Origin: Prorocentrum cordatum
Taxonomy: Eukaryota
Direction: 5' to 3'
DNA length: 56,708 nucleotides
Assembly (NCBI GenBank): GCA_963575745.1
Contig: CAUYUJ010000073.1
Location: 62,001-118,708, forward strand
Both the position numbers and the translations under genes were made by a program. The notes beneath the pieces were generated by a model, which was not told the origin of the DNA, did not search any database, and saw only the letters and a list, made by a program, of their open reading frames with translations. Below are positions 28,670 through 54,563 of this stretch, one piece after another (position 1 is the stretch's first letter; every line of letters starts with the position of its first letter).

Positions 28670-28682
28670 GAAGAAGAAGAGC

Positions 28683-28732
<50 letters not shown>

Positions 28733-28745
28733 GAAGAAGAAAGAA
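28606..28745. repeat. (AAC)n/(AAG)n microsatellite
   Basis: Directly visible. Confidence 0.95.
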
Positions 28746-30814: not shown

Positions 30815-30917
30815 CGTATATATATATATATAGATATGTCAACACATACATACAAGCAAACATACATTCATACATACATACATACATACATACATACACA
30901 CACATACATACATACAT

Positions 30918-30952
<35 letters not shown>

Positions 30953-31011
30953 CACACGTACATACGTACATACATACAGACAGACAGGCACACAGACAGA
31001 CAGACAGACAG

Positions 31012-31060
<49 letters not shown>

Positions 31061-31156
31061 CATGCATGCATGCATACATACGTACCTACGTACGTACATA
31101 CGGACATACATACGTACGTACGTACATGCATACATACATGCATACTACATACATAC
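30815..31156. repeat. Compound (TA)n/(TACA)n/(CAGA)n/(CA)n/(TACG)n microsatellite
   Basis: Directly visible. Confidence 0.95.
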
Positions 31157-31787: not shown

Positions 31788-34700
31788 CAAGACTGCATCG
31801 GCGCTGCGCGCCATGCACCTTGGTCCTTTCGAATTCGCACGCTAGTGGAGTGCAAGCGTGCGTACATGCGCACACACATGCGTATATGAATGCATAGTCC
31901 ATATGTACATATATACATACGTTTGTATGGATATGTACATGTAGACGCAAATTGTCAGTGTAACTCTGTGTGCGCATACACACGCGTATATCAGGCGGTA
32001 GTGGCCTGACCAGTTACTCATATCATCGCGCCACTAAAAGGCGCGAGGGTCTCAGGCAAACGTGTTCAGACTACCATGGGACAATGCGTCGCCGAGGTCA
32101 GTGTTGCGAGGACGTCCCGGGTGAAAATGGCCCGAACACCTCCGCTCAGGGGAGGGCATATCCGAAGTCAGCCGTGCGAGGAAGTTTCAAGCGAGGAGTG
32201 GTCTGAGCACCTCTGCTCAGGGCATCCTTGAACTAAGAGTTGCGAGAAGTCGCACGCGAAAGTGGCCGAACCACCATGGTGCAAGGCACCTCCGAAGTGA
32301 CACTTGCGAGAGTGTCTCAGGCGACAGTGGCTGGAACACCTCAACTGAGAGCGTCTCGGGCCCCAGAGCTGCGATGATGTCTCAAGCGAAAACGGCGGGA
32401 CCGATGCGAAGCAAGGCGCTTCTGAGGTCGGAGTTGCGAGCGTATCTTTGGCGAAGCGGATTAGATTATTTTCCGTTATCTCCTCTTCCTCCTTCCCCTT
32501 TTCTTTTCGTCCTCCTCCTGCTCTCCCTCCTCCTCCTCTTTCTGTTCCTCCTCCTCTTCCTCTCCCCCCTCTCCGCTTCTTTGTTTGTCCATTCTCCCCA
32601 CCCCTGGCGGCGCGGCGCGGCGCCGCTCGGCCTCTCTGCGAGTCAAGCAGCAAAAAGTGAGAGAACCCCCCCGAATTAGGAATGGTTTTTCCCAAGCCGC
32701 CAAGGGGGTCCGAAGGTGCTGCAAGAGGCGGTGCAGGTTTTGAAATCCCCCAGGGGCTCCTCGGATTCGGCTGGCCCTCGCCGGTTCTTGTCAGAACTAT
32801 GATGCATTGTCCATAATGCGAGGTCTCGGTTCCCAACAGCATTTCCGAAACTCGCCCACGTTGGCGCTCGCATCAGCGCGGTACCTACGGACTGAGGAAA
32901 GGGAGCGACTGGATTAGAAGTGAAGGGCCAGGCGGCTGAGAAAATAAGGGTTTGAGAAGGAGCGGGAAGGGTAGCTCTCGAAGGCCTCAGCGGAAATGCA
33001 GCGTCAACGCGCAGACGCTGGCCTCTCGAGCACGCGCTTCGGCCTGCCAGAGGGATCGGGTAGCAAGAGTTCCTTCCACACAAAATTCCGAATGAGAGCG
33101 TCGCCTCCATCGGACAGACGGTCCGACGCGCTCGGCACGCGGAGATCTCGACGCTGCATGACGCGGCCCAAAGCAACGTACAGGTGGCCGCGGGCAAAGG
33201 GGTCCGCTCGGGCGTCGACGGCGCACCTTTCCAAGGCGGCGCCTTGAGCACCGTTGAACGTGGACCCGTAAGCAGGCCGCAAAGGCATTTGCTTGCGCAT
33301 GACGCTGCAAGCTCCGCGGCCAAGACGCCACTGAAAAGTGGCACGCGGGATCGCGAAGGACTGCATGTCGAACGTTTGGACGACCGCGTGAAACCGGCGC
33401 ACCGCGGTCAAGATGACGGGCGTGCGGTTCATGAGGCGATCCCCACAGAATGGCGAAATCCCACCGCCTTTTCCGAATGTTTTCCCCGGCCGGAGAGAGA
33501 TGTGTTCTTTTGTGGCTCAGGGAAAGGGGGTAGCGCGGCAGAGGCCGCTGAAAAGGGGGGTTTAAGCGTACACGGTCCTCATTGTTAAGATTCCGAATCA
33601 ACTCGCACAGTGCGCCCGCGACCAAGCGAAGGCGATGAGGAGGAAACCCGAGGTACGTCTGGGCGTTCAGGAATTCGGTGGTCATGGTGTCGTCCAGGAC
33701 GGAATTTGCGTCGACTTCGATGGTGTCGGCGCTGTAGTGGATAACTTCCGTAAGGCCATGCTCCATGACCAGCCTATTGAGAACGAGGTTGTTGAAGTGG
33801 TCAACTTTCCCGTTCGTCGTCGCCACAATTTTTGCTCGAACGCATCGGCGAGGATCGCTCAGAACAGGGACTGTAAAATCAATGGCGTCGAGTTCGGATT
33901 GAACTTGCGCAATGCGCTCCAAAGGTACATGGCCCTGGACCCCGTTCCACGCGTGAGGCGCGGGGCACGTGCCGTTGCCGATGGATTCCAACCATTTCGT
34001 GAAGTCTGCGTCCTGCGCAGTCCGGCGGGCTTTGAACAGATGCCGCACGCGGAAGCGGCTCCAAGAGGCAGACATCCCCACGCAGCTTTGCACGATCTCC
34101 GCGCGAGTGCCGTACTTGACGACGGGCGGGATTTGTCGGAAGTCACCGTAGCACACGAACACCTTCGGCTTGTAATCGCCAGGCAGCGCCGACCGCAAGC
34201 GGGTTATCAACGCCACGACGCTATCCCAGGCGTTTTGTTTAGCCATCGGCCACTCATCCCATTGAATCAATCTGGCGGCTGCCAAGGTCCTTGCCTTGGC
34301 AGTTCTGGGGGTCACCGTGGATGTGAGGACGTCCTCGTCGACGGTAGGAATACCAAATGTAGAGTGAGCAGTCGCCCCGCGAACCAATTGCAGGGCCGCT
34401 TGGCCCGCGGTTGCCACGTTGCTGGCGGGGTGCCCAGCAGCTTCTGCCCAGTGCATGAGGAAATTGGCTAGCGTGGATTTGCCCGTGCCGGCGCGCCCGT
34501 GGACGGAGTAGAAGACGTCGGAAGTGGAACAGAACTGCGACTGGATCTCGTTCGCAAGGCGTCGAGCGTCTGAGGAACCGCGAACGCGCATGGTGAGGCG
34601 GCGGACTTCAGCGTCTGAAAGCTGAGGGGCCGGGTTGGTAGGAACGTCGTCTGGCAGAATTTCTGGCAAAGGGAACACGCTGCGGTCGCGGCCTGCTCGT

Positions 34701-37700
34701 CGCCATACACACAGCAACGACGCGGCCAGAGCAATGCGAGCAGAAGTCGCCGACACCCCTCGATCGAGGTAATCTTTTTGCAAATCTTTGTTGAAGCGAG
34801 CGACGAGAGTCCAAGGCGCGGAATCTCGATCCAACAGCAGGACAAAAACGAACGGCAATTGGGCCCCGGCGCAACGCAACTGGATGAGCTCCGGGATGGT
34901 GTCGCGGGCTGCCATGTCATGGGAGAAACGGCCAGTAGCCAACATAGCCTGCTCAAACGTAGGGCACTTGCGGCCCAAATGCGCGCGGCAGTCGTCAAAT
35001 GAACGTTTGGGGCAATGCAGAAGCATATGCCCGAGATAGAACGCTTCTTTCTGCCGGGGGAACTTCATCTCCAGACGGCACAACGGGGGTTCTCCACGTA
35101 ACCGGTTGTAGACAAAATGCTGCTGCCTGTCGGGCGCCGTGTCGCGCCAGATGCAGGTCGGGTTCTCCGTGTCGAGCTGGCCCCGCAACGTCGCCGGGCA
35201 ATTCTGGGAGTGCTGGAAGCGCTCGAAGTACTCCGCGTATAAGAGATCGTTGAAGAGGGGGTCGTCCAGGCGGTAGAAGTACCGCATCAAGGCGGAAACG
35301 GTGCTCTGCAAGGCGCTCTCTTCTTGGCCTTCAGTGAAGGAGATCCAATCTTGTCCGGGCATGTGCACGGGCAAGCACTGAACGGCAGGTGCACGCGTAT
35401 ACGTGACGTACCCGAAAATGAGCCAGAAGCACTCCGCGGCGCAGAGATACCGGCCGCGCAGCCAATCGGCGATCTCATCGTCAGAACGCTCGGCGGGGGG
35501 GCATGTCGTAGAGGGTGTAGTCTGGACCTTTGAACATATATTTGTATAAATACTCGAATAAGTTCACGTGTCCAGCGAATTTGACGTTGGCGCGGCCGCC
35601 CCACTTAATCAGGATCGCGGCGTTGTACTCGACGATGAGCTGGTTACAGCAGAGAGCGCGGCTTCCGCACGCAGCGCGCTTGGAGCCGCAATTAGGGCAA
35701 TGCCCGTTGCAGCTGCGGCGCCCGTGCAAAGGGCACCCGCGGCCGTCAAATTCAGTCTCTTCTCGGAGCGGCCATGGGCAGCCCTTGCTGCAAGGATCAG
35801 CAGGGTCTGCGGGGTGGCACCCGCGGTTGCATTTGCGAACCACGTGGCTGAGCACGAGGTCGCGAAGCACGCCAGGCTGCTCAGGAAGCTCGCAAGATGC
35901 ATTCGTCAACCTCTGCCGCGGTGGTCGGCGGGTCGTTGCAGCCGATGACGACGTGGGCATGAGGTAGTCCGCGCTCCTGGTATTCGACGACGCGCACGAT
36001 GCATTTGGACGCGCCGCAGAACTCTTTCTGGAGGAAAGACATCGTGATCAGGAGCTTGGCGTGGAAGACCCTCGTGACGACGTCGGGTCGGTCAGCGTGC
36101 GTTTGGCCTTCTCGGAGTTCCTGTTGTAGCTCAGGCCATTGGGTGGGCGCGGTGAGCGCGATAAACCAAGTGGGCGGTCCCAGTCGGCGGGCTGTTTCCA
36201 GGGCGTCGACCCGCAAACGTCGAAGGTGGCGAGGAGATCCCCGAACGGCGGAGGGCATGTAGTTAGTGCTTGTGAGCCGCTCGGTCAGCGGAGTGCGGCT
36301 GCCCAGGATCATTGCGCAGCACTTCGCAAAGGTGTTGACGTCGCGCGAGAGACGCGCGTTGCAGTGCCTTGACGCGTTGCAAACGCTCGCCCCCCATGCG
36401 GCAGTACACGTTGATGGCTCATTCGTTGAAGAGGCGCCCGCTCATGCGCATGCGGGAGAAACGTAAAGCCCGCTGCCGGCACCGCCACAATTGAGCGATC
36501 TTGCCGCGGGCGGGGGCGTTCAAGTCTGGCGCCCAGCCCCGACCGCCGCGCGGGAACCAGAGAGGGCACGATAGTGGTTCGTACATTTCGCTCACAGGCG
36601 GTAGGAAATCGCAGTGACCAGCTTTGGTTGTCCAGAAGTACACCGGTCGCGGGCATGCCGTTGCTCCCGAGCTGGCGTCCAAAATGGCAGCCACTTCCTG
36701 GACACCCTCGCCCCAACCGAGCCGTAAAGGGACATCCTGAATACCGCGACGTGGAGTGGCCAGTTTGGTGATCGCTTTCATGCACGGGTTATTGGGAAGG
36801 GTCATGCGCTCCAACTTTTTGACAATGCGGGGTTCGAGCTGAAGCCGCGCTGCCGTTTGGGAGCGGAGCTGAGGGTCGACGACGATGCACCGCACGGCGC
36901 TCTCAGCGTCGAGTTTCCACATGTTCTGGTACATGGTACCATGGATCTGCATGAAGAAAGGCTTGCGCGGGGAAAAATGCGTTTCCCGTTCCGACGAGCT
37001 GGACTGCATGTCGTGGACAGTCAGTGCGAAGAGGTTGTTGTAAGCACGCGAGGAGCCACTGAACGCGGGTGTCCGAAGTATATCCTGCATTGCGTGGTCC
37101 GGCCGTCGAAAGTACGCGTCGAAGTGAATGGCGTGTTTCCCCACTTGACAGCAAAACCCAACGCTTTCTGCAGCGCACGTAGCCGTTCCACAAGAGTCAC
37201 AAACTCGGGAGCGAAGCCCCAAAAGCATAGCTTGGACGTCGGGCGGCGCACGGCATGCGGCGCATTGGCGGGCGCTGCAGTGGAGAGCGTCGGGCATGCA
37301 ATCAGATTTCGGCTTCGCCTCTCCGCGCCCGAAACAGACGAAGGTCTCCATGCCGGGAATCGGGCGATATGCGGTACACAGTCGGGTTGCGCGGCACACC
37401 TCGCGTTTCACATAATGAGATCGTGGCCTGTGCCCCCCGCAACCCGAGCATGAGAAAGTCTGCGCTTCTGGCGGGGCGCGGCACGTGGTACATGCTCGGC
37501 TTGCGCGGCGCACGGCGTCTGCGAGGCAATCAGATCGCGGCCTGTGTTCTCCACGCCTGGAGCACAGTAGGAATGGTATTGGTGGGTTGGCAGATGCGGT
37601 AGCCTGAAGAACGCACTGAGTGCAAGCTCGTACGCTAGGCGGTCGGTCCAGCTGGGAGTTGGAGAAAGCGTCTCGAGGTAGACACTCAACGCAGGAAGCG

Positions 37701-39170
37701 CAAACGAACGAATCCGCCTTTCCGGGAGGCATCGTTCAGCATAATAAAATGAAGGATGCAGCCGAAGTGGCTGTGGAAGGAATCATCAAAACAGCGGTGG
37801 GAGAGCAAAGAAGACTGGTTGCCCCACAAACTTGGCAAGCGGGAAGAGGAAATTGAAGAGGATGAGGAGAAGGAGAAGGAGGAGGAGGAAGAGGAGGTGG
37901 ACGTTGCAAGTGTTCGCGCGGCCGTGAGCCCCCAGAGAGTGTTTCTCCAGGATGTGCGCTGAAACCGAAGGTTCCCGACGGCCTGATCTCCGAAATGTCA
38001 CAAAAACCCTGGTTCCCAACAGCGCGTCCGGATGAGGTGGCGTCGTGGCCCCGACGGTTTGCACTGAGTGTTGCGAGAGGCTCTGTCGAGGCGGGAGGAG
38101 GAACACGAAGAGGATGAGGAGAAAAAAGAACAGATTATGTGGACATCTGGGGCGCAGCCGAGGTGTCGCGGAAGAAATCCGCAGCAGAGACTTGTGAGAG
38201 TGAGGAGAGCTGCTTCTGCTAGACCTTTGGCGGGGCGGAACGCGAAACATCACGGGGCATTAGGAGAAGGAGGAGGAGGAGGAGGTAGAGGAGGAAGAGA
38301 ATGAGGAAGAGGAGGAGGAGCTCTTGGGCCCTTCGGTGATGCGAACGAAAAATGGCCTCGCTGCGCCAGTTTATACGACATCGACGACGACGAAGAAGGC
38401 GACGACAAAGAGAAGGGATAATGAGAGGGGGAGACCGCTGTGTTGGGATCTCGCGGTGCGCCTCTCGGGGCCCTCTGGGAGGCAGTTTTGAAGCCTCTTG
38501 GGGGTGTTTTGTGGTTCTTGGGAGTTTTTGTGAGGCCTCTTGGGGGCTCCTTGGGGCCTCTTGGGAGCCTCTTGGGGCCTCATGGGGCTCTCTCCAGGCC
38601 TTATGGGGCCCTCTCGCGGCGGAAAACTTAGTTTTTGAAGTTTTGGGCGCCCTCTTGGGTCTCTCTTGGGGCCGTCTTGGTGCTCTCTTGGGCCGTCTTG
38701 GGCGCCTCTCGGGCGGTCTCGGAGCCCTCCTGGACCGTGTTGGGGCCTTCTTGGGGGCCTCTTGGGCAGCACTGGGGCGATCTAGGGAGCCTCTTGGGCC
38801 ATTACGGAGCGTCGGGAAGCGGGAAAAGCGAGAAGACCAAAAACATCGAAAAACACATAGGAAAATCAACAAGTGTAGCCTCTCGGGGCTCTCTTGGGAG
38901 GCCTCTTGGGGGTCTCTGGGGGCGTTTTGGACGCGTCTTGGGCAATCTTGGGCCCAGATTGGGCGTCTTGGGCCGATCTTTGGGTGTCTCGGGGCCCCCT
39001 TTGGCCGTCTTGTGTTTTTTTTTTCCCGTCGCACTCGCAGGACAGACACGGATCACTCTGCAGGAGCGCCCCACAGGCTCGGGGAGGCCGAAATTCGCTT
39101 GGGGGGGGGAGGGGGCACCGTGTGTCGTTTTTCTGGGGTCCCCGGCCATGTAAGAATATATAAACAGGAA
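31788..39170 (-). mobile_element. Helitron, formerly autonomous; core certain, termini tentative
   Basis: Contains the RepHel pseudogene. Candidate 3' end: hairpin GCATGGCGC-GCA-GCGCC(G)ATGC followed by AGTCTTG|T ending at 31788 (minus strand). Candidate 5' end A|TTCCTGTTTATATATT at 39170. Other repeats lie between these ends and the gene, so linkage is inferred. Confidence 0.55.
33004..37732 (-). pseudogene. Helitron RepHel (N-terminal C4 zinc fingers + HUH Rep + PIF1-family helicase), broken by stops/frameshifts
   Basis: Collinear fragments: 36419-37732 (CxxC repeats, RAYNNLFA, YEPLSCPLWFPRG); 35881-36312 (GSPR, PTWFIALT, RPDVVTRVF, EYQERGLPHAH); 35481-35960 (IVEYN, YLYKYMFKGPD); 33578-35374 (GRAGTGKST, TAHSTFGIP, WDEWPM, GDFRQIPPVV, PPHRLRL, IRNLN); 33004-33441 (RKQMPLRPAY, AQG, LYVALGRV, NFVWKELL). 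Confidence 0.93.
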
Positions 39171-39200
39171 TATGTATATACATACATACATACATACATA

Positions 39201-40196
39201 CAAGACTGCATTGGCGCTTCGCGCCATGCGCTTTGTCCCGGACCCTCCCCGGCAAAGCAATAAAGCATCGCTTGCTTTTGCGGGGGGGACCTCGAAGCCT
39301 GGACGGGCGACCGGCTCATTTTTCTCATATCCCTGGTGCCTGCTGACACCGCGTTCGCCCGATGCGGTTGCACGCTTGTGCGCAGGAGCTGGGGGAATGA
39401 TATTTGTTCACGCGCATTGCCTGTCTCTCTCGATCGAGGAACTGAAACCTCGAGCCTCAAGCGTGGAACCGAAATCGTCGGGTCAGTTCGATGTACTTCG
39501 TAGGAAAATGCCGTCTGGGCGTTTGGGGAGCTCTTTTGGGCCGTCCTGGGGGACCCTTGGGCCGTCCCGGGGTCTTCTTGGGCCGTCTTGGGGAGCTGGG
39601 GGCTTCCAATGTCCTTTATGGAGATCTCCCACCCATGTTTTTCGTGGGTCTCTCTTGGGGGCCTTCTGGGGGCATCTTGGGTTTCTTGCAGGCAGTTTCG
39701 GGGCTCTCTGGGGCAGTCTTGGGGCCCTCTTGGGCCGTCTTCAAAGCCTCTGGGGGGGCCTCTTGGGCCGTTTTGGGGCGATATCGAGGGCCTATCGGGC
39801 CGCTTTGGACGCTGCAAAAACCCAAACAGCGGATATGTTAAATTTGCACACGTTCCCCAAGGAATGGGACGACGTTTACTTTTTCGGGGTTTTCTTAACA
39901 GCCTTTTCTGGCGTCTTGGGGGCCTCTTGGGCGGTTTTCAAACCATCGAGGTTCCTTTTGGAGCGCTCTGGTGCTGTCTTGGGTCTCTCTTGCGCTTCTC
40001 CGATGACCCCTCTGATCGCTTTGAGTCTGCTCGCAAGGCCCGGCAAGGCGCCCTGGGAGGCCCGGACGGGCCAGGTGACCTTTTCCAAGGGCGCCCAGGG
40101 GGCCGCTGAAACGTCCGAAAGGGTGTCCAGGCCGTCCCTGGGAGGGGGATCAAGTTTAGGGGGGGGGTCCGGGTAATTAAAATGTAGGGATAGGAA
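39201..40196 (-). mobile_element. ~1-kb non-autonomous Helitron-like element (duplicate at 47692-48730)
   Basis: Minus strand starts A|TTCCTATCCCTACATTTT and ends with hairpin GCATGGCGCGAAGCGCCAATGC-AGTCTTG|T, nearly the same end as at 31788. Both sides abut TA/TACA microsatellites. Interior has ~11-bp GGGCCTCTTGG repeats. Confidence 0.55.
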
Positions 40197-40215
40197 TGTG
40201 TGTATATATATATAT

Positions 40216-40263
<48 letters not shown>

Positions 40264-40726
40264 TCCTCCTATATTTTTACAAGCCGGGGGGGGGGGGCAT
40301 AAAAAAATTAACCCCAAGATCCGTGGCCCCGGGGGCCACCTGGAACCCCCTGCTGGAAGCCCCCCAGGCTTTCTGGAACTCTTGAAAGCCCCCGCTGGAC
40401 CTAGGCAACGGGCTCAAATCGGTCAGCAGGGCCGCCGAACGGTCCCCCGAGGGCCCCAAGAGGCCCCAGACACCCAGCAGACACCCCAAGACGACCCAAA
40501 GAAGACCCCCAAGAAGCTTTCAAAACGCGGAAAAACATTGATGCACGTTGGTTTTCGCATGAGTTTGGGAATGCTCTGTTCCTCGGTTTTCCTGGCGTCC
40601 GAGACCGCCCAGGAGGCCCGAAAGTCGCCCCACAATTGTCCGAAAGGGCTTCCAAGCAGTCCAGGAAAGCCCGAAGAATGCACACCAGGGTTCCAAGATG
40701 GCCCGAAGAGAGCCCCATGACGGCCC

Positions 40727-40745
40727 AAGATGGCCCCAAGACGCC
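40727..40745 (+). repeat. Target-site duplication of retrocopy 1 (partner 45908-45926)
   Basis: AAGATGGCCCCAAGACGCC lies immediately before the SL and immediately after the poly(A) remnant. Confidence 0.88.
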
Positions 40746-40767
40746 TCCGTAGCCATGTTGGCTCAAG
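40746..40767 (+). other. Genomic DinoSL sequence, one mismatch (5' end of retroposed mRNA)
   Basis: TCCGTAGCCATGTTGGCTCAAG versus canonical DCCGTAGCCATTTTGGCTCAAG. Confidence 0.92.
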
Positions 40768-40836
40768 CCATATATTGGTTCTGCGTTGCCCTTTCTTTTT
40801 ACCTCGTACACTCCGCAGATTCTTCCCGCGCCCGTC

Positions 40837-43800: not shown

Positions 43801-44657
43801 CCACGGAACCTCGCCGAAGCACGCTACGCTCCTCTTGCCAGACCTCAGACGACGATTGCATCAAGTACATCGACCGGATCATGATGTACTGCACCTTCAC
43901 GGCGGACCCGCTCACGCGGACCTCGAAGTGGGTGGAGGGTTTGGAGGGTGGCATCGAGCATTTGAAGGAGGTCGTTGTCGATGACAAGTTGGGCCTTTGT
44001 GAAGAGTTGGACAGGCGCATGCAGGCGCAGGTAGACACCTACGAGTGCGAGTGGAAGAGGGTTGTAGACACCCCTGAGTTGCGGAAGAAGTTCCGGCAAT
44101 TCGCCAACGTTGACGACGTCAAGCACGGCGACCTCGAGTGGAGCACCCAGCGCAAGCAAAAAAAGATCGCCGTCGAGGACAAGCCCACCGTGATCGGCCC
44201 AGCGAAGATCGGCAAGGACAAGGCCGACGACACGTGGCACTGGGTGGACGTCGGCTCGCCAGACGACTTCCCCAAAGGCGCGGGCTTCGCGGTCAAGGTG
44301 AGCAAATCGGAGCTCGCTGTGTTCAACCATGTGGCCATGGGCAAGTGGTACGCCACGCAGAATTCGTGCCCCCACAAGCAGCTCCAGGTGCTAGGCCGCG
44401 GCCTCATCGGCATGCACGGCGACGCCCCGAAGGTCGCCTGCCCAATCCACAAGAACACCTACAGCCTGGATACGGGCAAGGGCATCAGCAATGCGGGTCT
44501 GAACCTCGCCAGTTTCGACGCGAAGGTCGAGGGAGGCCGGGCGCTCGCCCACTTGCCCCCCGACGAGGTCCTGGACAAGGCCCTCGCCTCAGAGGACCCC
44601 GAGGGCAACTCTGGGTGCTCTGGCAGCTGCGAGATGCCCAAGGACTTGCAGTGGTCA
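40837..44657 (+). pseudogene. nirB: Processed pseudogene of cytochrome b5-fused NAD(P)H nitrite reductase (NirB-NirD fusion), copy 1
   Basis: Three frames (ORFs 40786, 42185, 43788). Lesions: 146-bp deletion at ~42181, 15-bp duplication at 42850-42879, 2-bp deletion at ~43845, cluster-ligand Cys changed to Arg (CVGTSWRRFG), stop TGA->TCA at 44655. Confidence 0.92.
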
Positions 44658-45894
44658 GGAATGAGAACCTTGCGCGGCCACCTCCTAGTCTCGCTTGGAA
44701 GCCAGCAGCTTTCGCGACGTGTGTCTGCAAATGCGCTAGGACCATCCTCGATCTCGTTCGCTCGCTCACCTTTCTATTTTCTCTCTCCCTCTCTCTCTCT
44801 TTCTCCCGCGCACCCTTTCAACACTCTCGCTCCCATCGGGCTGTGTAGACGCTGTGGAATTCGAGGTAGCCTTCAAAGTCGGGGGGACAGGGAGGACGGG
44901 CAGGGGGTGGAGCCACCCTCCATGTTTTATCCGGGTCTGGTCCCACTGCGCTGGAGGGCGATTTTGCGGTACAGCCGTGCAAAGGTGCTCGCGCGCGTCA
45001 CCGCCTACGAATTGATGAGCCTTGCATTGCTCGTTCTGATTATGATTATTTGTTTCACGCTGGCCGAGGTGGCACCGATGCCTCTCTGGTCACCAGAGCC
45101 CGTCATCACGTTTGCACATTCGGTGCATTGTCTGGAGTGGACAGCTTGCGAGATGGAGTCTGGCACTGGCCGCTCTGGGTTTAGTCCTTGGACGCCCAGC
45201 CTTGCCCGTGTGGAACACAGCAAGTTGGGCGCTCTTATATGCCTGAAGCCCCCAGGTTCGGAGACCAAACAGTAGTAGCTCGCTCACTCTGATAGGAATT
45301 ATGATTGAAAAGCGGCCGCTGGCAGGGGCTTTTGGAACACCTTCCCGGTACATGCAATCAGGTTGTGTTGGCTCATCTTGTAAGAGGATGCCGCCGTGGA
45401 ACTCGAGATAACACTTCGCAGCTAGAATTGGACGGACGGTGGAGGGGTGGAGCCCCTTGGCTTGTTTCGCCCAGATGCCGCTAAGTTGGTGGTTGTACTG
45501 CGCAGCTGTGCAATCCCAAGGGGAGTCTTGCCCCGCTCGCTCTTCTGTATGTGCGTAGTTCCTGGATACTCACTTTCGCCCGTATCGAGTACAGCAGGTT
45601 TTGTTGTCTTTGTTTTTCTGGCCATTGCGCCAGCACCCAGCACGGGAGGCCAGCAGAGTTGCAGCACGTCGCTCATATTTCGTACCACAAACGGGTTGGT
45701 GGCGGACGTCGGGGAGCTATTTCCCAGTTGTGGTGCTGGACTGGCTGTCTGGATGTAGTGGCTATACAGCGTTGCCCAGACATTGAACGGAATTCATGTT
45801 CAGTCTCTTGTCGGAGATGGACCCCTGAGCCGTGCGATGCAGATCCGTGCGGAGCGTGATTGTGGCTCGGACGAGTAGAGCTCAGCTGCGCTTG

Positions 45895-45907
45895 AACAAA
45901 AAAAAGA
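45895..45907 (+). other. Poly(A) tail remnant of retrocopy 1
   Basis: AACAAAAAAAAGA directly before the 3' TSD. Confidence 0.75.
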
Positions 45908-46549
45908 AAGATGGCCCCAAGACGCCCCCGAAGCATTCCAAATCGTGACCCGGTCGTTCAGGGAGACCACGATTGGAAGCGGGATGGCCCGAGGAAGCCT
46001 CGAGAGGCCCCCAGAAATGCCAAGGAGGCCTCCAGAAGGCCCCAAGGAGCTTTTAAAAACTTTCGTGAGGCCCCTAGAAGGCGTTTCAAGGAGGAAGGAG
46101 TCTTCGAAAAAAGAGCACAGGAGGATGGGACAAGAATTCGCAAGGTAGGGCGAGAATGGGGAAGAGGAAGAGGAGTCATGAGGGGAGGATCTCGAGTAAA
46201 ATTATGAGAACGGTGATATCGGAAAATGCAACAAGGTGTTATCGCTAGATTGTCTGTTTTAATGTCCTGCCATTTTGCCTGCATGCCAAACTTCAAGGAC
46301 CAAGGTGCGCGGCGCGAAGCGTCGATGCTGTCTTACACACATATACAGATATCAATGTGTACAGACATGAATGCATATATATGTGTGTATGTGTATATGG
46401 AGGGTTTCGCCCTCTGCCTCCGCCCCCCTCCTCTTGCGATTAATTGCATGGCAACGCTTGATTGGTTGGTCGGTTTTCGTGTCGGCTAGCTGGCTGAAAA
46501 CTAGGTTGGTTGTCTTGTTGACGAAATTTGCGCGCGCCTGTAATGATCA

Positions 46550-47140
46550 AGCAAGGGTGGTGGCTTCGAAAGCCCGCATCCTTCGTAAATTATCAGGCAT
46601 TGTCGTCTCGGGTGCGCGCGTGCCATAGTTTACGCGGAGTTGCCGCCTCGGGGGCGAGAGCGTGGTGTAGTTTACCATGGGTTGTGGCCCCTAGAGAATG
46701 AATGCGTCTGAATGTACCCAGGGTTGTGGTCCCGCGAGCGCGAATGCGACGTAATTTAAAAAGGGTTGGCCTCGGCAGCACGAGAAAAGCGTAATCTACC
46801 AGGGGGTTGTGGGCTCAAGAGCGCGAGCGCGTCGTAATGTACGAGGAGTTGTGGCCTCGGGATCCCGAACGCGTTTCAACTTACAATGGATTGCGGCATC
46901 GGGAGCGCGAACGCGTCGTAATCTACTAGGGGTTATAGCCTCGGGAGCGCGAGCTCGCGCTGTAATTTACAAGGGGCTGTGGCCTCGGGACTGCGAGCGC
47001 ATTGTGCTGTCGGGCGCGCACCTCCGCCGTAGTTTGCGAGGGATTGCGGCCGCTGGAGCGCGCGCGTCGCAATCTACTGCGGATCTGTGTTTCCTAGAGC
47101 ATGCTGTAATTTTCAAGGGCCTGTGGCCCCCGAAGCCCGC
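46550..47140 (+). repeat. Diverged ~42-bp minisatellite (duplicate ~55210-55800)
   Basis: Units resembling GTTGTGGCCTCGGGAGCGCGAACGCGTCGTAATTTACAAGGG. Confidence 0.8.
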
Positions 47141-49219
47141 ATACGTCGCGTGTTTACATGTCTCAGGTCACCCAGAAGTTCCTAGGATGGGGTGGTAACG
47201 GGCCGCTTTCCGGCAGGGGAGGTGTAGGGCCGTCTTGAATTTTCAGCCTTGGAACGAGGAGCAATAACGAATGCCATTGGAATTGGCACTGGAAACGATG
47301 AGTAGAGGGTTGGATGCAGAGAACAGACAATTAAGCTTCGCAGACTTGTGGGCGCCAAGGGAACCGGCGGAGATATACACAGACATTTGTAAACATTCGG
47401 GCGTCTTGGGCCGATCTTTGGGTGTCTTGGGCCGATCTTTGGGTGTCTCGGGGCCCCCTTTGGCCGTCGTGGGGGCTTCTTTTTTCGCGTCGCACTCGCA
47501 GGACAGACACGGATCACTCTGCAGGAGCGCCCCAAAGGCTCGGGGAGGCCGAAATTCGTTTGGGGGGGGGGGCACCGTGTGCCGTTTTTCCGGGGTCCCC
47601 GGCCATGTAAAAAAATATAAATAGGAATATGTATATACACATACATACATACATACATACATACATACATACATACATACATACATACATACAAGACTGC
47701 ATTGGCGCTTCGCGCCATGTGCTTTGTCCTGGACCCTCCCCGGCAAAGCAATAAAGCATCGCTTGCTTTTGCGGGGGGTACCTCGAAGCCTGGACGGGCG
47801 ACCGGCTCATTTTTCTGATATCCTTGGTGCCTGCTGACACCGCGTTCGCCCGATGCGGTTGCACGCTTGTGCGCAGGAGCTGGGGGAATAATATTTTTTT
47901 CGCGCGTATTGCCTGTCTCTCTCGATCGAGGAACTGAAACCTCAAGCCTCAAGCGTGGAACCAAAATCGTCGGGTCAGTTCGATGTACCTCGTAGGAAAA
48001 CGCCGTCTGGGCGTTTGGGGAGCTCTTTTGGGCCGTCCTGGGGGACCCTTGGGCCGTCCCGGGGCCTTCTTGGGCCGTCTTGGGGAGCTGGGGCCCTCCA
48101 GAGGTCTATTGAAGCCATCTAAGGCCTCTTGGGGGCCTCCAATGTCCTTTTATGGGGATCTCCCACCCATGGCTTTCGTGGGTCTCTCTTGGGGGCCTTC
48201 TGGGGGCATCTTGGGCTTCTTGCGGGCAGTCTCGGGGCTCTCTGGGGCAGTCTTGGGGCCCTCTTGGGCCGTCTTCAAAGCCTCAAGGGGGGCCTCTTGG
48301 GCCGTTTTGGGGCGATATCGAGGGCCTATCGGGCCGCTTTGGACGCTGCAAAAACCCAAACAGCGGATATGCTAAATTTGCACATTTTCCCGAAGGAATG
48401 GGACGATGTTTGCTTTTTCGGGGTTCTCTTAACAGCCTCTTCTGGCGTCTTGGGGGCCTCTTGGGCGGTTTTCAAACCATCGAGGTTCCTCTTGGAGCGC
48501 TCTGGTGCTGTCTTGGGTCTCTCTTGCGCTTCTCCGATGACCCCTCTGATCGCTTCGAGTCTGCTCGCAAGGCCCAGCAAGGCGCCCTGAGAGGCCCGGA
48601 CGGGCCAGCGGACCTTTTCCAAGGGCGTCCAGGGGGCCGCTGAAACGTCCGAAAGGGTGTCCAGGGCGTCCCTGGGAGGGGGATCAAGTTTAGGGGGGGG
48701 GTCCGGGTAATAAAAATGTAAGAATAGGAATGTGTGTGTGTATATATATATATATGTATTCCTCTTCCTATATGTTTACAAGCCGGGGGGGGCATAAAAA
48801 AATTAACCCCAAGATCCGTGGCCCTGGGGGCCACTTGGAACCCCCTGCTGGAAGCCCCCCAGGCTTTCTGGAACTCTTGAAAGCCCCCGCTGGACCTAGG
48901 CAACGGGCTCAAATCGGTCAGGAGGGCCGCCGAACGGTCCCCCGAGGGCCCCAAGAGGCCCCAGACACCCAGCAGACACCCCAAGACGACCCAAAGAAGA
49001 CCCCCAAGAAGTTTTCAAAACGCGGAAAAACATTGATGCACATTGGTTTTCGCATGAGTTTGGGAATGCTCTGTTCCTCGGTCTTCCTGGCGTCCGAGAC
49101 CGCCCAGGAGGCCCGAAAGTCGCCCCACAATTGTCCGAAAGGGCTTCCAAGCAGTCCAGGAGAGCCCGAAGAGCACACCAGGATTCCAAGATGGCCCGAA
49201 GAGAGCCCCATGACGGCCC

Positions 49220-49238
49220 AAGATGGCCCCAAGACGCC
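49220..49238 (+). repeat. Target-site duplication of retrocopy 2 (partner 54564-54582)
   Basis: Identical AAGATGGCCCCAAGACGCC on both sides. Confidence 0.88.
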
Positions 49239-49260
49239 TCCGTAGCCATTTTGGCTCAAG
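49239..49260 (+). other. Perfect genomic DinoSL (5' end of retroposed mRNA)
   Basis: TCCGTAGCCATTTTGGCTCAAG is an exact 22/22 match, with the ATG 70 nt downstream at 49330. Confidence 0.97.
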
Positions 49261-49329
49261 CCATATATTGGTTTTGCGTTGCCCTTTGTTTTTACCTCGT
49301 ACACTCCGCAGATACTTCTCGCGCCCGTC

Positions 49330-52300
49330 ATGCCGTGGTCCACGCCCGTGAGCTTCAAGGAGGGTCTCCAGGCCATCCCTGGCAAGTGGTACATCAAGGA
49401 CATCGCTGACCCGATCGAGTTGCAAGTCGCGGGAGAGGAGGTCCGATCCAGGGAGCCGCGCTTCGGCGGCCAGCCGCTGATCGGCAAGCCTCGGGATACA
49501 GAGAAGTTCGAGATGGACGTCCAGATGGGCGGTTTTCCGATGATTGCCTACGTGACCACCCGGCAAGAGCAGCACTTGATTGAGTTCTCGAATGGGGGCA
49601 CTTGGTCGAAAGATTCTCCCCTGAAACAGGCAGCTGGCGACATGCCTGGCTCTCAGGGTATCCCCATGAGCGAGATCAATAAGCACAATACCAAAGACTC
49701 TGCTTGGGTGGTGCTGCACGGCAAGGTGTGCGATCTCACCAGCTTTCTTGCGGATCACCCCGGGGGCGAGCAGGTCGTGCTCGATTGGGCCGGGAGGGGC
49801 GCCACGAAGTTTTGGTCGGCGATCCACAAGAAAGACTGGTTTCAGAAGTATACGAAGCCCGAGTGGTGCTTGGGAGCGGTGGGGCTGGAGCCAGCGGCGC
49901 CCGTCAGCGAGGAGCTGAAGAAGGCGCAGGACGAACTCAGGGCCTTGAAGGCGGAGCTCGCACGGCTCACCGTGGCCCCCACGAAGCCTTCCCTGGGGCT
50001 GCAGGACGCCTTCGCGGCAACGAAGGCCGCGCAAACGAAGCCTGAGGCGACCAGCTTGCCCGCTGAGGTTGAAGCGTGCCCGCGACTGCAGCTCCACGGC
50101 AAGCGTGTCATCGTGATCGGCCACGGCCCAGTCGGCCATGATTTCATCGTGAAGCTCGTGGGCATGGTCGGCGATGGGGCTTTGGACATCACCGTGGTGG
50201 GCGAGGAGCCGCGCATGGCCTACGACCGCGTGCATCTTACGGAGTACTTCGAGCACCGCGACGCCTCAAAGCTCAGCATGCGCGACAGCAAGTGGTTCAC
50301 GGAGCACAAGGTTATTTGTAAAACCAACGTTCGAGCAGAGAAGATCGACCGCGATGGTTGTAGCGTTACTCTGCGCAACGTGAAGTCCAATGCCACAGAG
50401 GAGATGAACTACGATGCGTGCGTGATCTGCACAGGCTCCTACCCCTTCGTGCCGCCGTTGAAGGGCTTGAGCAGCGACGCCGTCGGCGCGTTTGTCTACC
50501 GTACGATCGAGGACCTCGAGGGGATGGTTTTGTTCGCGAAGAAGTCGACCAAGGCTGCTGTCATCGGCGGAGGCCTCCTGGGCTTAGAGGCCGCGAAGGC
50601 GGTCTACGACTTGGGACAGGCTACGCATGTGCTCGAGATGGCCCCGTACTTGATGCCGACGCAGCTGGACGAGGGAGGTGGCAAGGCCCTGGGGAAGAAG
50701 ATCGAAGACATGAATATCACAGTCCACACGAGCTCGCGCATAGCAGAAATCGTAGTTGAGAATGGCGTCTTGAAGGGCGCGCGGCTCAGCGACGCGAATC
50801 ACTCAGAGGAATACCTACTGGAGGTGGACATGTTCATCGTCAGCGCTGGCGTCCGCCCACGTGACGAGCTGGCCCGCAACAGTGGATTGGCTGTGGGCCA
50901 GCGCGGTGGCGTGGTGGTCAACGATCGCATGCAGAGCAGCGATCCTAAAGTCTCTGCGTTGGGCGAGGCGGCTTGCTACAAGGGTCTCTGCCACGGGCCG
51001 ATCGCTCCCGGCTGGGACCAGGCGTCTGTCTTGGCGAAGAATTTCGAATATGCGACGCGGGGCTTGAACTCAAAAAGAATAGCAGCCAAGAAAGACAACG
51101 TTGCTTCTCCCGAGCCACCGCTCTACCAGGGCAGTGACTTGTCCACCAAGCTTAAGTTGCTTGGCGTCGACGTGGCCTCCTTCGGGAGTTCGCTCGATTT
51201 CTGGTTCAAGCGGCAGTTCGGAGACGATGCCAAGAAGCTTGGACTTTCTTTCACCTTGCAGACAGACCCATTCAGCGGCCTGTATCGGAAACTTGTCTTT
51301 CACGAGGAAACCCAGAAGTTGATGGGTGGTCTCTTGATGGGCAACGAAGACTACTTCAGTCTACTTGGGCTCGCCAAGCAGGACAATTTGGGTAAGAAGG
51401 CACCAGTCGACCTGTTCATGGGAGGCAGTTCGGAAGAGAACGCGGAAGACTTGAGCGATGACGCCGTCGTCTGCTTTTGCCAGAAGGTCACGAAGAAGGA
51501 CATTGTCGACGCGGCGAAGGAGAAGGACTGCGTTACGATGGCTGACATCAAGCGCTGTACGACCGCGGGTTCTGGTTGTGGCGGCTGTGTCTTGAACACA
51601 GGCTTCGTGCCGAAGATTATGAAGTTGGCGTTGGAGGAGTGCGGCAAGAAGGCATTCACCGGCATCAGCCCCAGCTGCCCCTTCACGCGCCAGGAGCTGT
51701 TTGAGATTATCAAGGTGAAGGAGTTGAAGACCTACGAGGAGGTCGTCGAGACGTGCGCCAGGATGGGCAAGATTACGGAACTCCAGAAGGCGCTAGCGGG
51801 CGACGAGGTCTGCAAGCCGGTCGTCGCCTCCATATTGGCCTCCCTGCGGCAGGAAAACCCCACCAAGGATGGGCTCAAGCAGCTACAGGACACGAACGAC
51901 AGCTTCCTGGGCAACATCCAGCGCAGCGGGCAGTACTCCGTGATCCCCAGGGTGCCCGCTGGCGAGATCACGCCGGACGAGATGATTCTCATGGGCACCG
52001 TGGCCAAAAAGTACAACTTGTGGACCAGGGTGACGGGTGCCCAGCGCATCGGCCTCTTCGGTGCCAACATGTGGCAGCTGCCTTCCATTTGGGAGGAGCT
52101 CTGCTACGGGAAGACGTCCTTCATTTCTGCCGACGGCAAGGTTGCAGCGAAAGTCGACTGCGAGAGCATGGAGTCTGGGCACGCCTACGGGAAGGCCCTC
52201 CGCGCCGTGAAGACGTGCGTCGGGACCAGCTGGTGTCGCTTCGGCCAGCAGGACGCTGCGGGCATGGGTCACCGCGTCGAGCATCGGTACAAGGGCTTCC

Positions 52301-53279
52301 GGGCCCCGCACAAGTTTAAGATGGGCGTCTCTGGTTGCATGCGCGAGTGCGCAGAGGCCCAAGGCAAGGACATCGGCCTCGTGGCGACAACCACGGGCTA
52401 CAATTTGTATGTCGGCGGCAACCACGGAACCTCGCCGAAGCACGCTACGCTCTTCTTGCCAGACCTCTCAGACGACGATTGCATCAAGTACATCGACCGG
52501 ATCATGATGTACTACACCTTCACGGCGGACCCGCTCACGCGGACCTCGAAGTGGGTGGAGGGTTTGGAGGTGGCATCGAGCATTTGAAGGTGGTCGTTGT
52601 CGATGACAAGCTGGGCCTTTGTGAAGAGTTGGACAGGCGCATGCAGGCGCAGGTAGACACCTACGAGTGCGAGTGGAAGAGGGTTGTAGACACCCCTGAG
52701 TTGCGGAAGAAGTTCCGGCAATCCGCCAACGTTGACGACGTCAAGTACGGCGACCTCGAGTGGAGCACCCAGCGCAAGCAAAAAAAGATCGCCGTCGAGG
52801 ACAAGCCCACCGTGATCGGCCCAGCGAAGATCGGCAAGGACAAGGCCGACGACACGTGGCACTGGGTGGACGTCGGCTCGCCAGACGACTTCCCCAAAGG
52901 CGCGGGCTTCGCGGTCAAGGTGAGCAAATCGGAGCTCGCTGTGTTCAACCATGTGGCCATGGGCAAGTGGTACGCCACGCAGAATTCGTGCCCCCACAAG
53001 CAGCTCCAGGTGCTAGGCCGCGGCCTCATCGGCATGCACGGCGACGTCCCGAAGGTCGCCTGCCCAATCCACAAGAACACCTACAGCCTGGATACGGGCA
53101 AGGGCATCAGCAATGCGGGTCTGAACCTCGCCAGTTTCGATGCTAAGGTCGAGGGAGGCCGGGTGCTCGTCCACTTGCCCCCCGACGAGGTCCTGGACAA
53201 GGCCCTCGCCTCAGAGGACCCCGAGGGCAACTCTGGGTGCTCTGGCAGCTGCGAGATGCCCAAGGACTTGCAGTGGTGA
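49330..53279 (+). pseudogene. nirB: Cytochrome b5-fused NAD(P)H nitrite reductase (NirB-NirD fusion) retrogene, copy 2; one frameshift at ~52568
   Basis: Intronless. Motifs: b5 (KHNTKDSAWVVLHGKV..HPGG..H), FAD/NADH (VIGHGPVG, TGSYPFVPP, GGGLLGLEAA), BFD 2Fe-2S (CFC..CGGC), siroheme/4Fe-4S (CVGTSWCRFG, GCMRECAE), NirD Rieske (CPHK..CPIH), TGA at 53277. A single G is missing relative to copy 1, and several conserved residues are substituted. Confidence 0.9.
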
Positions 53280-53401
53280 GGAATGAGAACCTTGCGCGGC
53301 CACCTCCTAGTCTCGCTTGGAAGCCAGCAGCTTTCGCGACGTGTGTCTGCAAATGCGCTAGGACCATCCTCGATCTCGTTCGCTCGCTCACCTTTCTATT
53401 T

Positions 53402-53455
<54 letters not shown>

Positions 53456-54545: not shown

Positions 54546-54563
54546 AACAAACAAACAAACAAA
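54546..54563 (+). other. Poly(A) remnant of retrocopy 2, converted to (AAAC)n
   Basis: AACAAACAAACAAACAAA directly before the 3' TSD. Confidence 0.75.

What the first reader, a model, noticed from the sequence alone, without database searches (positions are those of the whole stretch)
33004..53279. Directional T->C / A->G hypermutation ('reverse RIP') in the duplicated retrogenes and the Helitron
Seen: where family-conserved residues let me polarise differences between the two nitrite reductase copies, about 15 are T->C or A->G, arising independently in each copy. Copy 2: GRD->GRG, GVF->GAF, CYGL->CHGP, SLW->SLR, TK->TR, RQF->RQS. Copy 1: WC->WR, SLW->SPW, KY->KH, RY->RH, YY->YC, RVLV->RALA. 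Only a few go other ways (LVG->LMG, TGA->TCA). Helitron motifs drift the same way (FITLT->FIALT, EYQK->EYQE, PLSY->PLSC, HANV->RANV, FAHG->FARG, ALSRV->ALGRV). Many changes create CpG. Known: pseudogenes normally decay C->T/G->A, and dinoflagellates replace part of their thymine with 5-hydroxymethyluracil. Inference: a repeat-targeted mutagenic process, possibly hmU-linked, that inactivates duplicates and raises GC. Both strands are hit after the DNA duplication, so RNA editing does not explain it.
Basis: partly seen in the sequence, partly recalled or inferred. Interest (0 to 1): 0.85.

Follow-up and report, generated by a model that had tools for sequence, protein, structure and literature searches.

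The report
One-strand T-to-C decay of dinoflagellate pseudogenes
Two tandem copies of a reverse-transcribed nitrite reductase gene and a neighbouring Helitron transposon in a GC-rich dinoflagellate have decayed mostly by T-to-C changes on one DNA strand at G-T-G/A sites, the reverse of normal pseudogene decay, but nothing shows that repeats are the target.

Summary
One nitrite-reductase mRNA was retroposed once into a high-copy repeat, leaving a spliced-leader relic, a poly(A) remnant and a 17-bp target-site duplication. The 8.5-kb unit was then duplicated as DNA; the copies are 97.2% identical.

Polarised with 26 homologues, 34 nonsynonymous differences split 17 and 17 between the copies. They are T>C 19, A>G 6, G>A 3, C>T 0 and other 6. 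C>T is 0 of 286 opportunities (p = 1.6e-5).

Three features are new:
- **Strand:** the excess sits on the window's + strand. T>C runs at four times the A>G rate (p = 0.002).
- **Context:** it concentrates at 5'-G-T-R-3'.
- **Helitron:** its ORFs lie on the - strand, yet it shows the same + strand G-T-R to G-C-R changes (12 of 20 inferred changes).

The co-duplicated 3' 2.7 kb has no excess (3 of 175 against 25 of 212 G-Y-N sites).

RNA editing and strand-symmetric biased gene conversion do not fit. A duplication-triggered "reverse RIP" is not supported. The closest known signature is uncorrected T·G replication mispairs (A:T>G:C at GTN/NAC, strand-biased). A link to 5-hydroxymethyluracil is plausible but untested. 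A base-calling artefact at modified thymines is not excluded.

The parts
33004..37735 (-). Helitron Rep/helicase pseudogene, split over several frames. It carries + strand G-T-R > G-C-R changes at conserved residues.
   Evidence: Pfam Helitron_like_N scores 9.3e-29 on 35881-36441. The homologues carry PIF1 helicase domains. At conserved columns there are 20 unique one-step changes: A>G 12 and T>C 3 on the element's sense strand, and no S>W change. Of the 12 A>G changes, 11 read G-C-R on the + strand.
38946..47403 (+). Tandem duplication unit 1: high-copy repeat, retrogene copy 1 and 3' flank.
   Evidence: Self-BLAST gives 97.2% identity to unit 2. The global alignment has 197 substitutions and 21 indels.
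47404..56056 (+). Tandem duplication unit 2: high-copy repeat, retrogene copy 2 and 3' flank.
40729..40745 (+). Target-site duplication, 5' copy of unit 1. The same 17-mer recurs at 45910-45926, 49222-49238 and 54566-54582.
   Evidence: Four exact matches against 0 expected. Contigs of run X1 join 40742 to 45928, which is the empty site in other copies of the repeat (table 5).
40746..40767 (+). Dinoflagellate spliced-leader relic of copy 1, with one T>G mismatch.
   Evidence: (1 mismatch).
49239..49260 (+). Spliced-leader relic of copy 2, exact.
   Evidence: 0 mismatches.
40837..44657 (+). Nitrite reductase coding sequence of copy 1 (cytochrome b5 + NirB + NirD/Rieske). It is broken by a 146-bp deletion at 42180/42181 and a 2-bp deletion at 43843, and its stop codon has changed to TCA.
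   Evidence: An X1 contig spans the 146-bp deletion junction without a gap (record 6). Of the 34 polarised changes, 17 are in this copy, 12 of them T>C.
49330..53279 (+). Nitrite reductase coding sequence of copy 2. It is open except for a 1-bp deletion in a G run at 52568.
   Evidence: Of the 34 polarised changes, 17 are in this copy, 7 of them T>C.
44658..45909 (+). 3' UTR and decayed poly(A) remnant of copy 1. The copy 2 equivalent is 53280-54565.
   Evidence: Only 2 of 80 + strand G-Y-N sites differ between the copies.
45910..47403 (+). Co-duplicated 3' flank of unit 1, which lacks the T>C excess.
   Evidence: 1 of 95 + strand G-Y-N sites differs. C/T differences number 5 and A/G differences 8.

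Best explanation
**Shown.** A single retroposed nitrite-reductase mRNA was duplicated in tandem as DNA. Both copies, and a neighbouring Helitron in the opposite orientation, then accumulated independent point changes. An A:T>G:C transition dominates, and it falls on the T of the window's + strand, preferentially in 5'-G-T-R-3' (GTG/GTA > GCG/GCA).

**Inferred.** This is a DNA-level, strand-asymmetric, context-dependent mutational process acting on relaxed sequence in this chromosomal stretch. It is not a device that senses duplication. Its signature matches uncorrected T·G mispairs made during replication or repair synthesis: A:T>G:C at 5'GTN3'/5'NAC3' with a one-strand bias, as seen in mismatch-repair-defective cells.

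**Speculative.** Thymine modification may raise the mispairing rate or hinder its repair in silenced DNA. 5-hydroxymethyluracil is abundant in dinoflagellates and enriched on repeats, and its oxidation product 5-formyluracil pairs with G.
For: **One insertion, then DNA duplication**
- Identical spliced-leader junctions, poly(A) remnants and 17-bp target-site duplications occur in both units.
- Differences other than + strand C/T are equally dense in the coding sequence (34 in 3527 bp) and in the 3' UTR plus flank (26 in 2746 bp).

**Direction**
- T>C 19, A>G 6, C>T 0 among 34 polarised sites.
- T>C 19 of 350 opportunities against C>T 0 of 286, p = 1.6e-5.

**Strand**
- T>C against A>G per opportunity, p = 0.002.
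- Over the whole unit, + strand G-Y-R has 24 differences against 192 T/T sites; the - strand has 5 against 166.

**Context**
- The 5' base is G in 12 of 19 T>C changes, against 32% of 365 opportunities (p = 0.005).
- GTG is hit at 8 of 53 opportunities and GTA at 3 of 14.

**Independent point events**
- Changes split 17 and 17 between the copies, with no runs (16 runs, p = 0.31).
- Only 7 shared derived changes exist.

**Same absolute strand in the oppositely oriented Helitron**
- 12 of its 20 inferred changes are A>G on its sense strand, and 11 of those 12 read G-C-R on the + strand.
- At 33191 and 33237, contigs of run X1 from another Helitron copy keep the T.
- Of the 12 Helitron places listed where the window has C and X1 has T, 9 have a 5' G.
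- Over 33004-47403, the X1 summary counts window-C/read-T at 127 places against T/C 57, G/A 44 and A/G 54.

**Known parallels**
- Mismatch-repair-defective E. coli spectra are dominated by A:T>G:C at 5'NAC3'+5'GTN3' and are strand-biased (abstract of bioRxiv 10.1101/346874).
- 5hmU is enriched on repeats in two dinoflagellates (passages of PMC11572971, and PMC11071213).
- Oxidised 5hmU is read as T-to-C (listed abstract of PMC6100112).
Against: - The 3' 2.7 kb of each unit has 172 unchanged + strand G-T-N sites but only 3 differences. Neither a replication-error model nor a transcription model explains this spared part.
- Local GC content does not explain it either (hit against unhit sites in the coding sequence, p = 0.97).
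- The window shows no long-term depletion of GTR relative to YAC. The process is therefore either recent, local, or balanced by something unseen.
- The implied equilibrium GC of about 0.85 exceeds the window's 0.49-0.70. This argues against a uniform genome-wide bias of this strength.
- Replication direction, transcription direction, mismatch-repair status and 5hmU positions are all unknown here.
- All counts come from one 23-kb stretch of one assembly.
Confidence: 0.5

Rival explanations
1. The changes are a consensus or base-calling artefact. Modified thymines (5hmU) in native long reads are miscalled as C, so the 'mutations' exist only in the assembly.
For: - Dinoflagellate DNA replaces a large share of T with 5hmU (background passage of PMC11071213).
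- Small indels in a G run and in a CT repeat accompany the substitutions.
- The X1 contig pieces over the coding sequence carry fewer differences from copy 1 than a pure copy 2 would: 6 of 13 and 7 of 10. This fits either a mosaic contig or absent variants.
Against: - A context-driven miscall should hit the same site in both copies, because their local sequences are identical. Instead the hits are independent: 17 and 17 unique changes, with 3 shared transitions (1 T>C and 2 A>G) among 7 shared changes.
- A miscall should also hit the 172 G-T-N sites of the 3' part, and it does not.
- The 146-bp deletion is confirmed by an X1 contig.
- The strand asymmetry would need strand-specific modification.
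Confidence: 0.2
2. This is a homology- or repeat-triggered defence hypermutation. Silenced retro-copies and transposons are marked, for example by thymine hydroxylation, and mutated T>C on one strand.
For: - The three affected elements are a transposon and two retro-copies.
- The changes destroy conserved residues.
- At G-T-R sites 11 changes fell on 134 copy-sites, about 8% per copy (67 opportunities in two copies). Differences other than + strand C/T amount to about 1% of bases between the two copies.
- 5hmU marks repeats and represses transposons in Amphidinium (PMC11572971).
- One-strand coordination recalls RIP. This resemblance is recalled, not tested.
Against: - The co-duplicated 3' UTR and 3' flank are spared.
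- Part of that spared flank is itself a very high-copy repeat (X1 word depth 569-1635 at 45484-46443).
- The tandem repeat at 25198-27049 shows no transition excess.
- No enzyme candidate was found in the window (Pfam on 82 ORFs).
Confidence: 0.12
3. GC-biased gene conversion, allelic or between the tandem units, favours fixation of W>S changes.
For: W>S 26 against S>W 5. Tandem duplicates recombine often; this is established knowledge, not tested here.
Against: - Gene conversion bias is strand-symmetric, but T>C exceeds A>G fourfold (p = 0.002), and + strand G-Y-R differences outnumber - strand ones 24 to 5.
- Only 1 of the 26 W>S changes is a transversion, despite 859 transversion opportunities.
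- The derived states show no tract structure (runs test p = 0.31).
- The 3' part of the same unit is unaffected.
Confidence: 0.08
4. The changes are RNA-level footprints. The two copies came from differently edited mRNAs, or were patched by cDNA of edited transcripts.
For: In the nitrite reductase copies the excess lies on the sense strand and mostly inside the coding sequence. Dinoflagellates are reported to edit nuclear mRNAs (search listing of PMC5357065; passages of PMC11114475).
Against: - The same insertion site, junctions and flanks, together with equal background divergence in flank and coding sequence, indicate one retroposition followed by DNA duplication.
- In adjacent codons 873 and 874, the derived state sits in opposite copies.
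- The Helitron carries the change on its antisense strand.
- The 5' flank outside the mRNA is also hit (11 of 74).
Confidence: 0.05

Closest known systems
Replication-error spectrum of mismatch-repair-defective cells (A:T>G:C at 5'NAC3'/5'GTN3', strand-biased; E. coli, bioRxiv 10.1101/346874, abstract read)
   Same: A:T>G:C transitions dominate. There is a 5' G next to the mutated T. One DNA strand is favoured. Events are independent single bases.
   Different: - The bias here is about fourfold, against the twofold reported for E. coli.
- There is an added 3' purine preference.
- The effect is confined to part of a duplicated unit.
- The organism is a eukaryote of unknown mismatch-repair status with heavily modified thymine.
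RIP (repeat-induced point mutation) of Neurospora and other fungi (recalled)
   Same: Duplicated or mobile sequences are riddled with one type of transition, in a dinucleotide-dependent way, which destroys the coding capacity.
   Different: - The direction is opposite (T>C, not C>T).
- The context differs (G-T-R, not CpA).
- GC rises instead of falling.
- The duplicated 3' 2.7 kb is spared.
- No link to a sexual phase or a cytosine methyltransferase is shown.
5-formyluracil / oxidised 5hmU mispairing with G (chemical 5hmU sequencing reads T-to-C; PMC6100112 listed abstract; PMC2673420 listed abstract)
   Same: The base change is T>C on the strand that carries the modified thymine. The host has very high 5hmU, which is enriched on repeats.
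   Different: - No modification data exist for this locus.
- Base-resolution mapping in Breviolum found no sequence motif for 5hmU (figure legend passage of PMC11071213), whereas here G-T-R is preferred.
Dinoflagellate retrogenes with DinoSL relics (PMC6050394, PMC5585692, PMC12014239; search listings only)
   Same: An intronless copy with a spliced-leader relic at the 5' end, a poly(A) remnant and a target-site duplication.
   Different: None as a retrogene. The substitution spectrum of such copies did not appear in the papers my searches listed.

Membership tests
Dinoflagellate retrogene (retroposed mRNA) | DNA-encoded spliced-leader relic at the 5' end | tested here: met
   A 21-nt SL motif lies at 49240-49260 (0 mismatches) and at 40747-40767 (1 mismatch), with 0 matches expected by chance.
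Dinoflagellate retrogene (retroposed mRNA) | Intronless copy with a poly(A) remnant and a target-site duplication | tested here: met
   The frame is continuous and colinear with 1314-aa homologues. An A-rich remnant precedes the 3' target-site duplication. The 17-bp duplication is present four times. X1 contigs show the empty site.
Helitron | Rep (HUH) domain fused to a PIF1-type helicase | tested here: met
   Pfam Helitron_like_N scores 9.3e-29. Homologues of the 721-aa ORF carry PF05970.
Helitron | Terminal 5'-TC / CTRR-3' ends with a 3' hairpin | not tested
   The element ends were not sought.
RIP-like repeat-induced point mutation | C:G>T:A transitions | tested here: not met
   C>T 0 and G>A 3 of 34 polarised changes; T>C 19 and A>G 6.
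RIP-like repeat-induced point mutation | Mutation extends over the whole duplicated length | tested here: not met
   In the duplicated 3' 2.7 kb, 3 of 175 + strand G-Y-N sites differ, against 25 of 212 in the SL-to-stop part.
RIP-like repeat-induced point mutation | Dependence on a premeiotic stage and a RID-type enzyme | not testable with these tools
   No genome is held for this window.
Mismatch-repair-deficient replication-error signature | A:T>G:C transitions dominate | tested here: met
   25 of 34 polarised changes.
Mismatch-repair-deficient replication-error signature | Hotspot at 5'GTN3'/5'NAC3' | tested here: met
   The 5' base is G in 12 of 19 T>C changes against 32% expected (p = 0.005). 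In the Helitron, 11 of 12 changes fit.
Mismatch-repair-deficient replication-error signature | Strand bias that follows fork direction, seen genome-wide | not testable with these tools
   A strand bias is present, but fork direction and the rest of the genome are unavailable. The spared 3' part is unexplained.
GC-biased gene conversion | Strand-symmetric W>S excess that includes transversions | tested here: not met
   T>C against A>G, p = 0.002. One W>S transversion in 859 opportunities.
RNA-editing footprint | Differences arise through separate RNA intermediates | tested here: not met
   Junctions, target-site duplications and flanks are shared, and background divergence is equal. The Helitron is hit on its antisense strand.

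The most novel reading that the evidence does not exclude
Dinoflagellates may have a strand-specific genome-defence or silencing-linked mutator. In this reading, thymines of silenced retro-copies and transposons are hydroxylated (5hmU, then 5fU) in a G-T-R context on one strand, perhaps guided by transcription or by RNA. They are then fixed as C. The result inactivates the elements and raises GC and CpG, a thymine-based mirror image of fungal RIP.
Probability: 0.12. Interest if true: 0.9.

Novelty: new variant of a known kind. Interest (0 to 1): 0.6.

Why it matters
No spontaneous mutation spectrum for dinoflagellates turned up in my searches. Their DNA chemistry, with massive 5hmU and heavy cytosine methylation, makes the spectrum an open question.

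A strong, one-strand, G-T-R-specific T>C process would bear on three matters:
- It would help explain the high GC content and the undepleted CpG of such genomes (CpG observed/expected 0.94 in this window).
- It would give a concrete, testable mutational consequence of 5hmU.
- It would warn that T/C differences between near-identical paralogues can be mistaken for the widespread 'mRNA editing' reported in these organisms.

If it proves to be an artefact, it would instead flag systematic T>C errors in native long-read assemblies of 5hmU-rich genomes.

Tried and rejected
- **Own genome.** None is held for this window, so no genome-wide or single-copy control was possible.
- **Sequencing runs.** No RNA holder was listed. 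One DNA run, X1, held half of the sampled words.
- **Read table cut short.** The variants could therefore not be checked one by one.
- **X1 contig pieces.** Their difference counts (6 of 13, 7 of 10, and 11 where only 9 are possible) fit mosaics, a further copy or another strain equally well.
- **Runs X2 and X3.** They had nothing, or only repeat scraps.
- **Control gene.** Pfam on 82 ORFs found no conserved gene in 1-33 kb, so there is no control gene in the window.
- **Close relatives.** No near-identical parent or fragment was found in the protein databases. The best was 82% among near-length proteins and 83% over a quarter of the query among short ones. Synonymous and UTR differences therefore stay unpolarised.
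- **Three-copy polarisation.** Majority-rule polarisation in the 24-27 kb repeat gave too few events: T>C 6, A>G 4, A>C 4, C>T 4, G>A 1.
- **Negative tests.** Local GC does not predict hits (p = 0.97). GTR against YAC composition shows no long-term asymmetry. The derived states show no tract structure.
- **Earlier notes.** The scan's own findings returned nothing.
- **Literature.** No report of an AT>GC or T>C substitution bias in dinoflagellate nuclear DNA appeared among the papers listed. Only the top-ranked listings of those searches were seen.
Full report
**Anatomy**

The window is GC-rich (0.49-0.70 per 2 kb). A self-comparison shows an 8.5-kb tandem duplication: unit 1 is 38946-47403 and unit 2 is 47404-56056, at 97.2% identity. 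The global alignment has 197 substitutions and 21 indels.

Inside each unit lies an intronless nitrite reductase gene (cytochrome b5 + NirB + NirD/Rieske). Its closest database relative is 82% identical over 99% of a 976-aa query and is 1314 aa long.

Each copy has the hallmarks of one retroposed mRNA:
- It starts with the dinoflagellate spliced leader: exact at 49240-49260, and with one mismatch at 40747-40767.
- It ends in a decayed A-rich tract.
- It is bracketed by the same 17-bp direct repeat, at 40729-40745 and 45910-45926 in unit 1 and at 49222-49238 and 54566-54582 in unit 2.

Contigs of the one public DNA run that holds this sequence (X1) join 40742 to 45928. They belong to a family seen at word depths of hundreds to thousands, so the target is a high-copy repeat whose other members lack the insert.

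The two copies share junctions and flanks. Differences other than + strand C/T are equally dense in the coding sequence (34 in 3527 bp, 0.96%) and in the 3' UTR plus 3' flank (26 in 2746 bp, 0.95%). One retroposition followed by a DNA-level tandem duplication is therefore the economical reading. Differences between the copies then arose in DNA.

Both copies are broken:
- Copy 1 has a 146-bp deletion, whose junction an X1 contig spans without a gap.
- Copy 1 also has a 2-bp deletion and a mutated stop codon.
- Copy 2 has only a 1-bp deletion in a G run.

pN/pS between the copies is 0.61, which indicates relaxed constraint.

**The observation**

I polarised nonsynonymous differences with 26 homologues, requiring the ancestral residue in at least 60% of them and the other state in at most 10%.

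Of 58 nonsynonymous codon differences, 34 were resolved: T>C 19, A>G 6, G>A 3, A>T 2, and C>A, G>T, C>G and T>G 1 each. C>T was 0. Each copy carries 17. The 24 unresolved differences lie in poorly conserved columns or involve multiple nucleotides (listed). Five of them would add T>C or A>G at looser thresholds.

Against the number of possible nonsynonymous changes at 841 conserved codons:
- T>C is 19 of 350 opportunities and C>T is 0 of 286 (p = 1.6e-5).
- W>S is 26 of 1637 and S>W is 5 of 1828 (odds ratio 5.8).
- The implied equilibrium GC is about 0.85.

Only 7 derived states at highly conserved columns are shared by both copies. The order of copy-1 and copy-2 events along the gene is random (16 runs, p = 0.31). 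These are therefore independent point events after the duplication, not conversion tracts.

*The process is strongly one-stranded.*
- Per opportunity, T>C runs at four times the A>G rate on the + strand (p = 0.002).
- Unpolarised, there are 91 C/T differences against 51 A/G differences.

*It has a sequence context.*
- The mutated T has a 5' G in 12 of 19 cases, against 32% of 365 opportunities (p = 0.005).
- GTG is hit at 8 of 53 opportunities and GTA at 3 of 14. All other trinucleotides together are hit at 8 of 298.
- Over the whole unit, + strand G-Y-R has 24 differences against 192 T/T sites; the same motif on the - strand has 5 against 166.
- 11 of the 19 T>C changes create a CpG. The window's CpG observed/expected ratio is 0.94.

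*It follows the absolute strand, not the gene's sense strand.*
- The Helitron at 33004-37735 is coded on the - strand (Helitron_like_N; PIF1 helicase in its homologues).
- At conserved columns of its ORF pieces I could infer 20 unique one-step changes: A>G 12, T>C 3, A>C 2, and G>C, T>G and C>G 1 each. None is S>W.
- Columns after residue 660 of the 721-aa ORF were dropped because the frame is lost there.
- The 12 A>G changes are T>C on the + strand, and 11 of them read G-C-R there.
- At two of these positions (33191 and 33237), an X1 contig from another Helitron copy still has T.
- Of the 12 listed Helitron places where the window has C and X1 has T, 9 have a 5' G.
- The X1 summary for 33004-47403 counts window-C/read-T at 127 places, against 57 T/C, 44 G/A and 54 A/G.

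*It is patchy.* Counting + strand G-Y-N sites that differ between the units:

| Part of the unit | Sites that differ | Sites examined |
|---|---|---|
| 5' flank | 11 | 74 |
| Spliced leader to stop codon | 25 | 212 |
| 3' UTR | 2 | 80 |
| 3' flank | 1 | 95 |

The SL-to-stop part differs from the two 3' parts combined at p = 1e-4. Local GC does not separate hit from unhit sites (p = 0.97).

**What this rules in and out**

*RNA editing* is out as the source of the differences, for three reasons:
- There was a single insertion.
- The Helitron is hit on its antisense strand.
- The 5' flank, which lies outside the mRNA, is also hit.

*GC-biased gene conversion* does not fit. It cannot produce a fourfold strand asymmetry or the near-absence of W>S transversions (1 in 859 opportunities), and no tract structure is seen.

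*A duplication-sensing 'reverse RIP'* does not fit, for two reasons:
- 2.7 kb of the same duplicate is spared, including a stretch that is itself very high-copy.
- Another tandem repeat in the window (25198-27049, 94% identical) has an unremarkable spectrum: C/T 10, A/G 6 and transversions 15 of 31. Its properly polarised singletons number only 21.

*A uniform genome-wide bias of this strength* is hard to square with the window's GC content. It also does not fit the lack of any GTR/YAC compositional asymmetry.

The closest described signature is that of uncorrected replication errors. In mismatch-repair-defective E. coli, substitutions are dominated by A:T>G:C at 5'NAC3'+5'GTN3' and are strand-biased (abstract of bioRxiv 10.1101/346874). 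I recall similar T>C signatures in mismatch-repair-deficient tumours but did not check them.

A thymine-modification link is chemically reasonable:
- 5hmU is very abundant in dinoflagellates.
- It is enriched on repeats and represses transposons (passages of PMC11572971 and PMC11071213).
- Oxidised 5hmU is read as C (listed abstract of PMC6100112).

However, base-resolution mapping in Breviolum found no sequence motif for 5hmU, and nothing here measures modification.

**The artefact question**

The artefact question stays open.

Three points argue against a systematic miscall:
- The two copies have identical local sequence, yet they are hit at different sites.
- The 172 unchanged G-T-N sites of the 3' part are essentially untouched (3 further sites there differ).
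- The large deletion is independently confirmed.

I put the artefact at about 0.2.

**Verdict**

- The direction, the independence of events and the DNA level are right.
- The repeat-targeting is not supported.
- The 5hmU link is untested.

The best reading (0.5) is a real, strand-asymmetric, G-T-R-specific A:T>G:C mutational process acting on relaxed sequence in this stretch. It resembles mismatch-repair-escaped T·G mispairs, possibly promoted by thymine modification. The spared 3' part remains unexplained.

No earlier report of such a bias in dinoflagellate nuclear DNA appeared among the papers listed.

Noticed in passing
window 38284-41163 and 45484-46443: The DNA flanking the retrogene belongs to a very high-copy repeat family. 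X1 word depth runs from hundreds to about 19,000, and the family has long proline/arginine/glycine-rich ORFs on both strands. Many X1 contigs join distant points of it, which suggests internal length variants.
   Followed up: partly
window 41973-42303: An X1 contig spans the 146-bp deletion junction of copy 1 but differs from it at 11 positions in 331 bp. Copies 1 and 2 differ at only 9 positions there. A further deletion-bearing copy, or a diverged strain, must therefore exist.
   Followed up: no
window 24300-27300: A tandem repeat of roughly 950-bp units lies in the AT-richest part of the window (GC 0.49-0.53). Its units are 94% identical, and older partial copies are 82-93% identical. Its substitution spectrum is flat, unlike that of the retrogenes.
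   Followed up: partly
window 42849-42863 and 44788: Copy 1 carries a 15-bp in-frame tandem duplication (KEVTK). A (CT)n tract in the 3' UTR differs by 28 bp between the copies. Replication slippage has therefore also been active.
   Followed up: no
window 14017-14395, 4554-4739, 15249-15427, 30844-31156: Long purine-rich trinucleotide arrays ((GAG)n, (AGG)n, (GGA)n) and an (ACAT)n array lie on the + strand. They coincide with strongly positive GC and AT skew between 12 and 30 kb.
   Followed up: no
window 1-33000: No Pfam family at E <= 0.001 was found in 78 long ORFs, apart from weak low-complexity hits at 28496-29245. The many long ORFs are probably by-products of the high GC content.
   Followed up: partly
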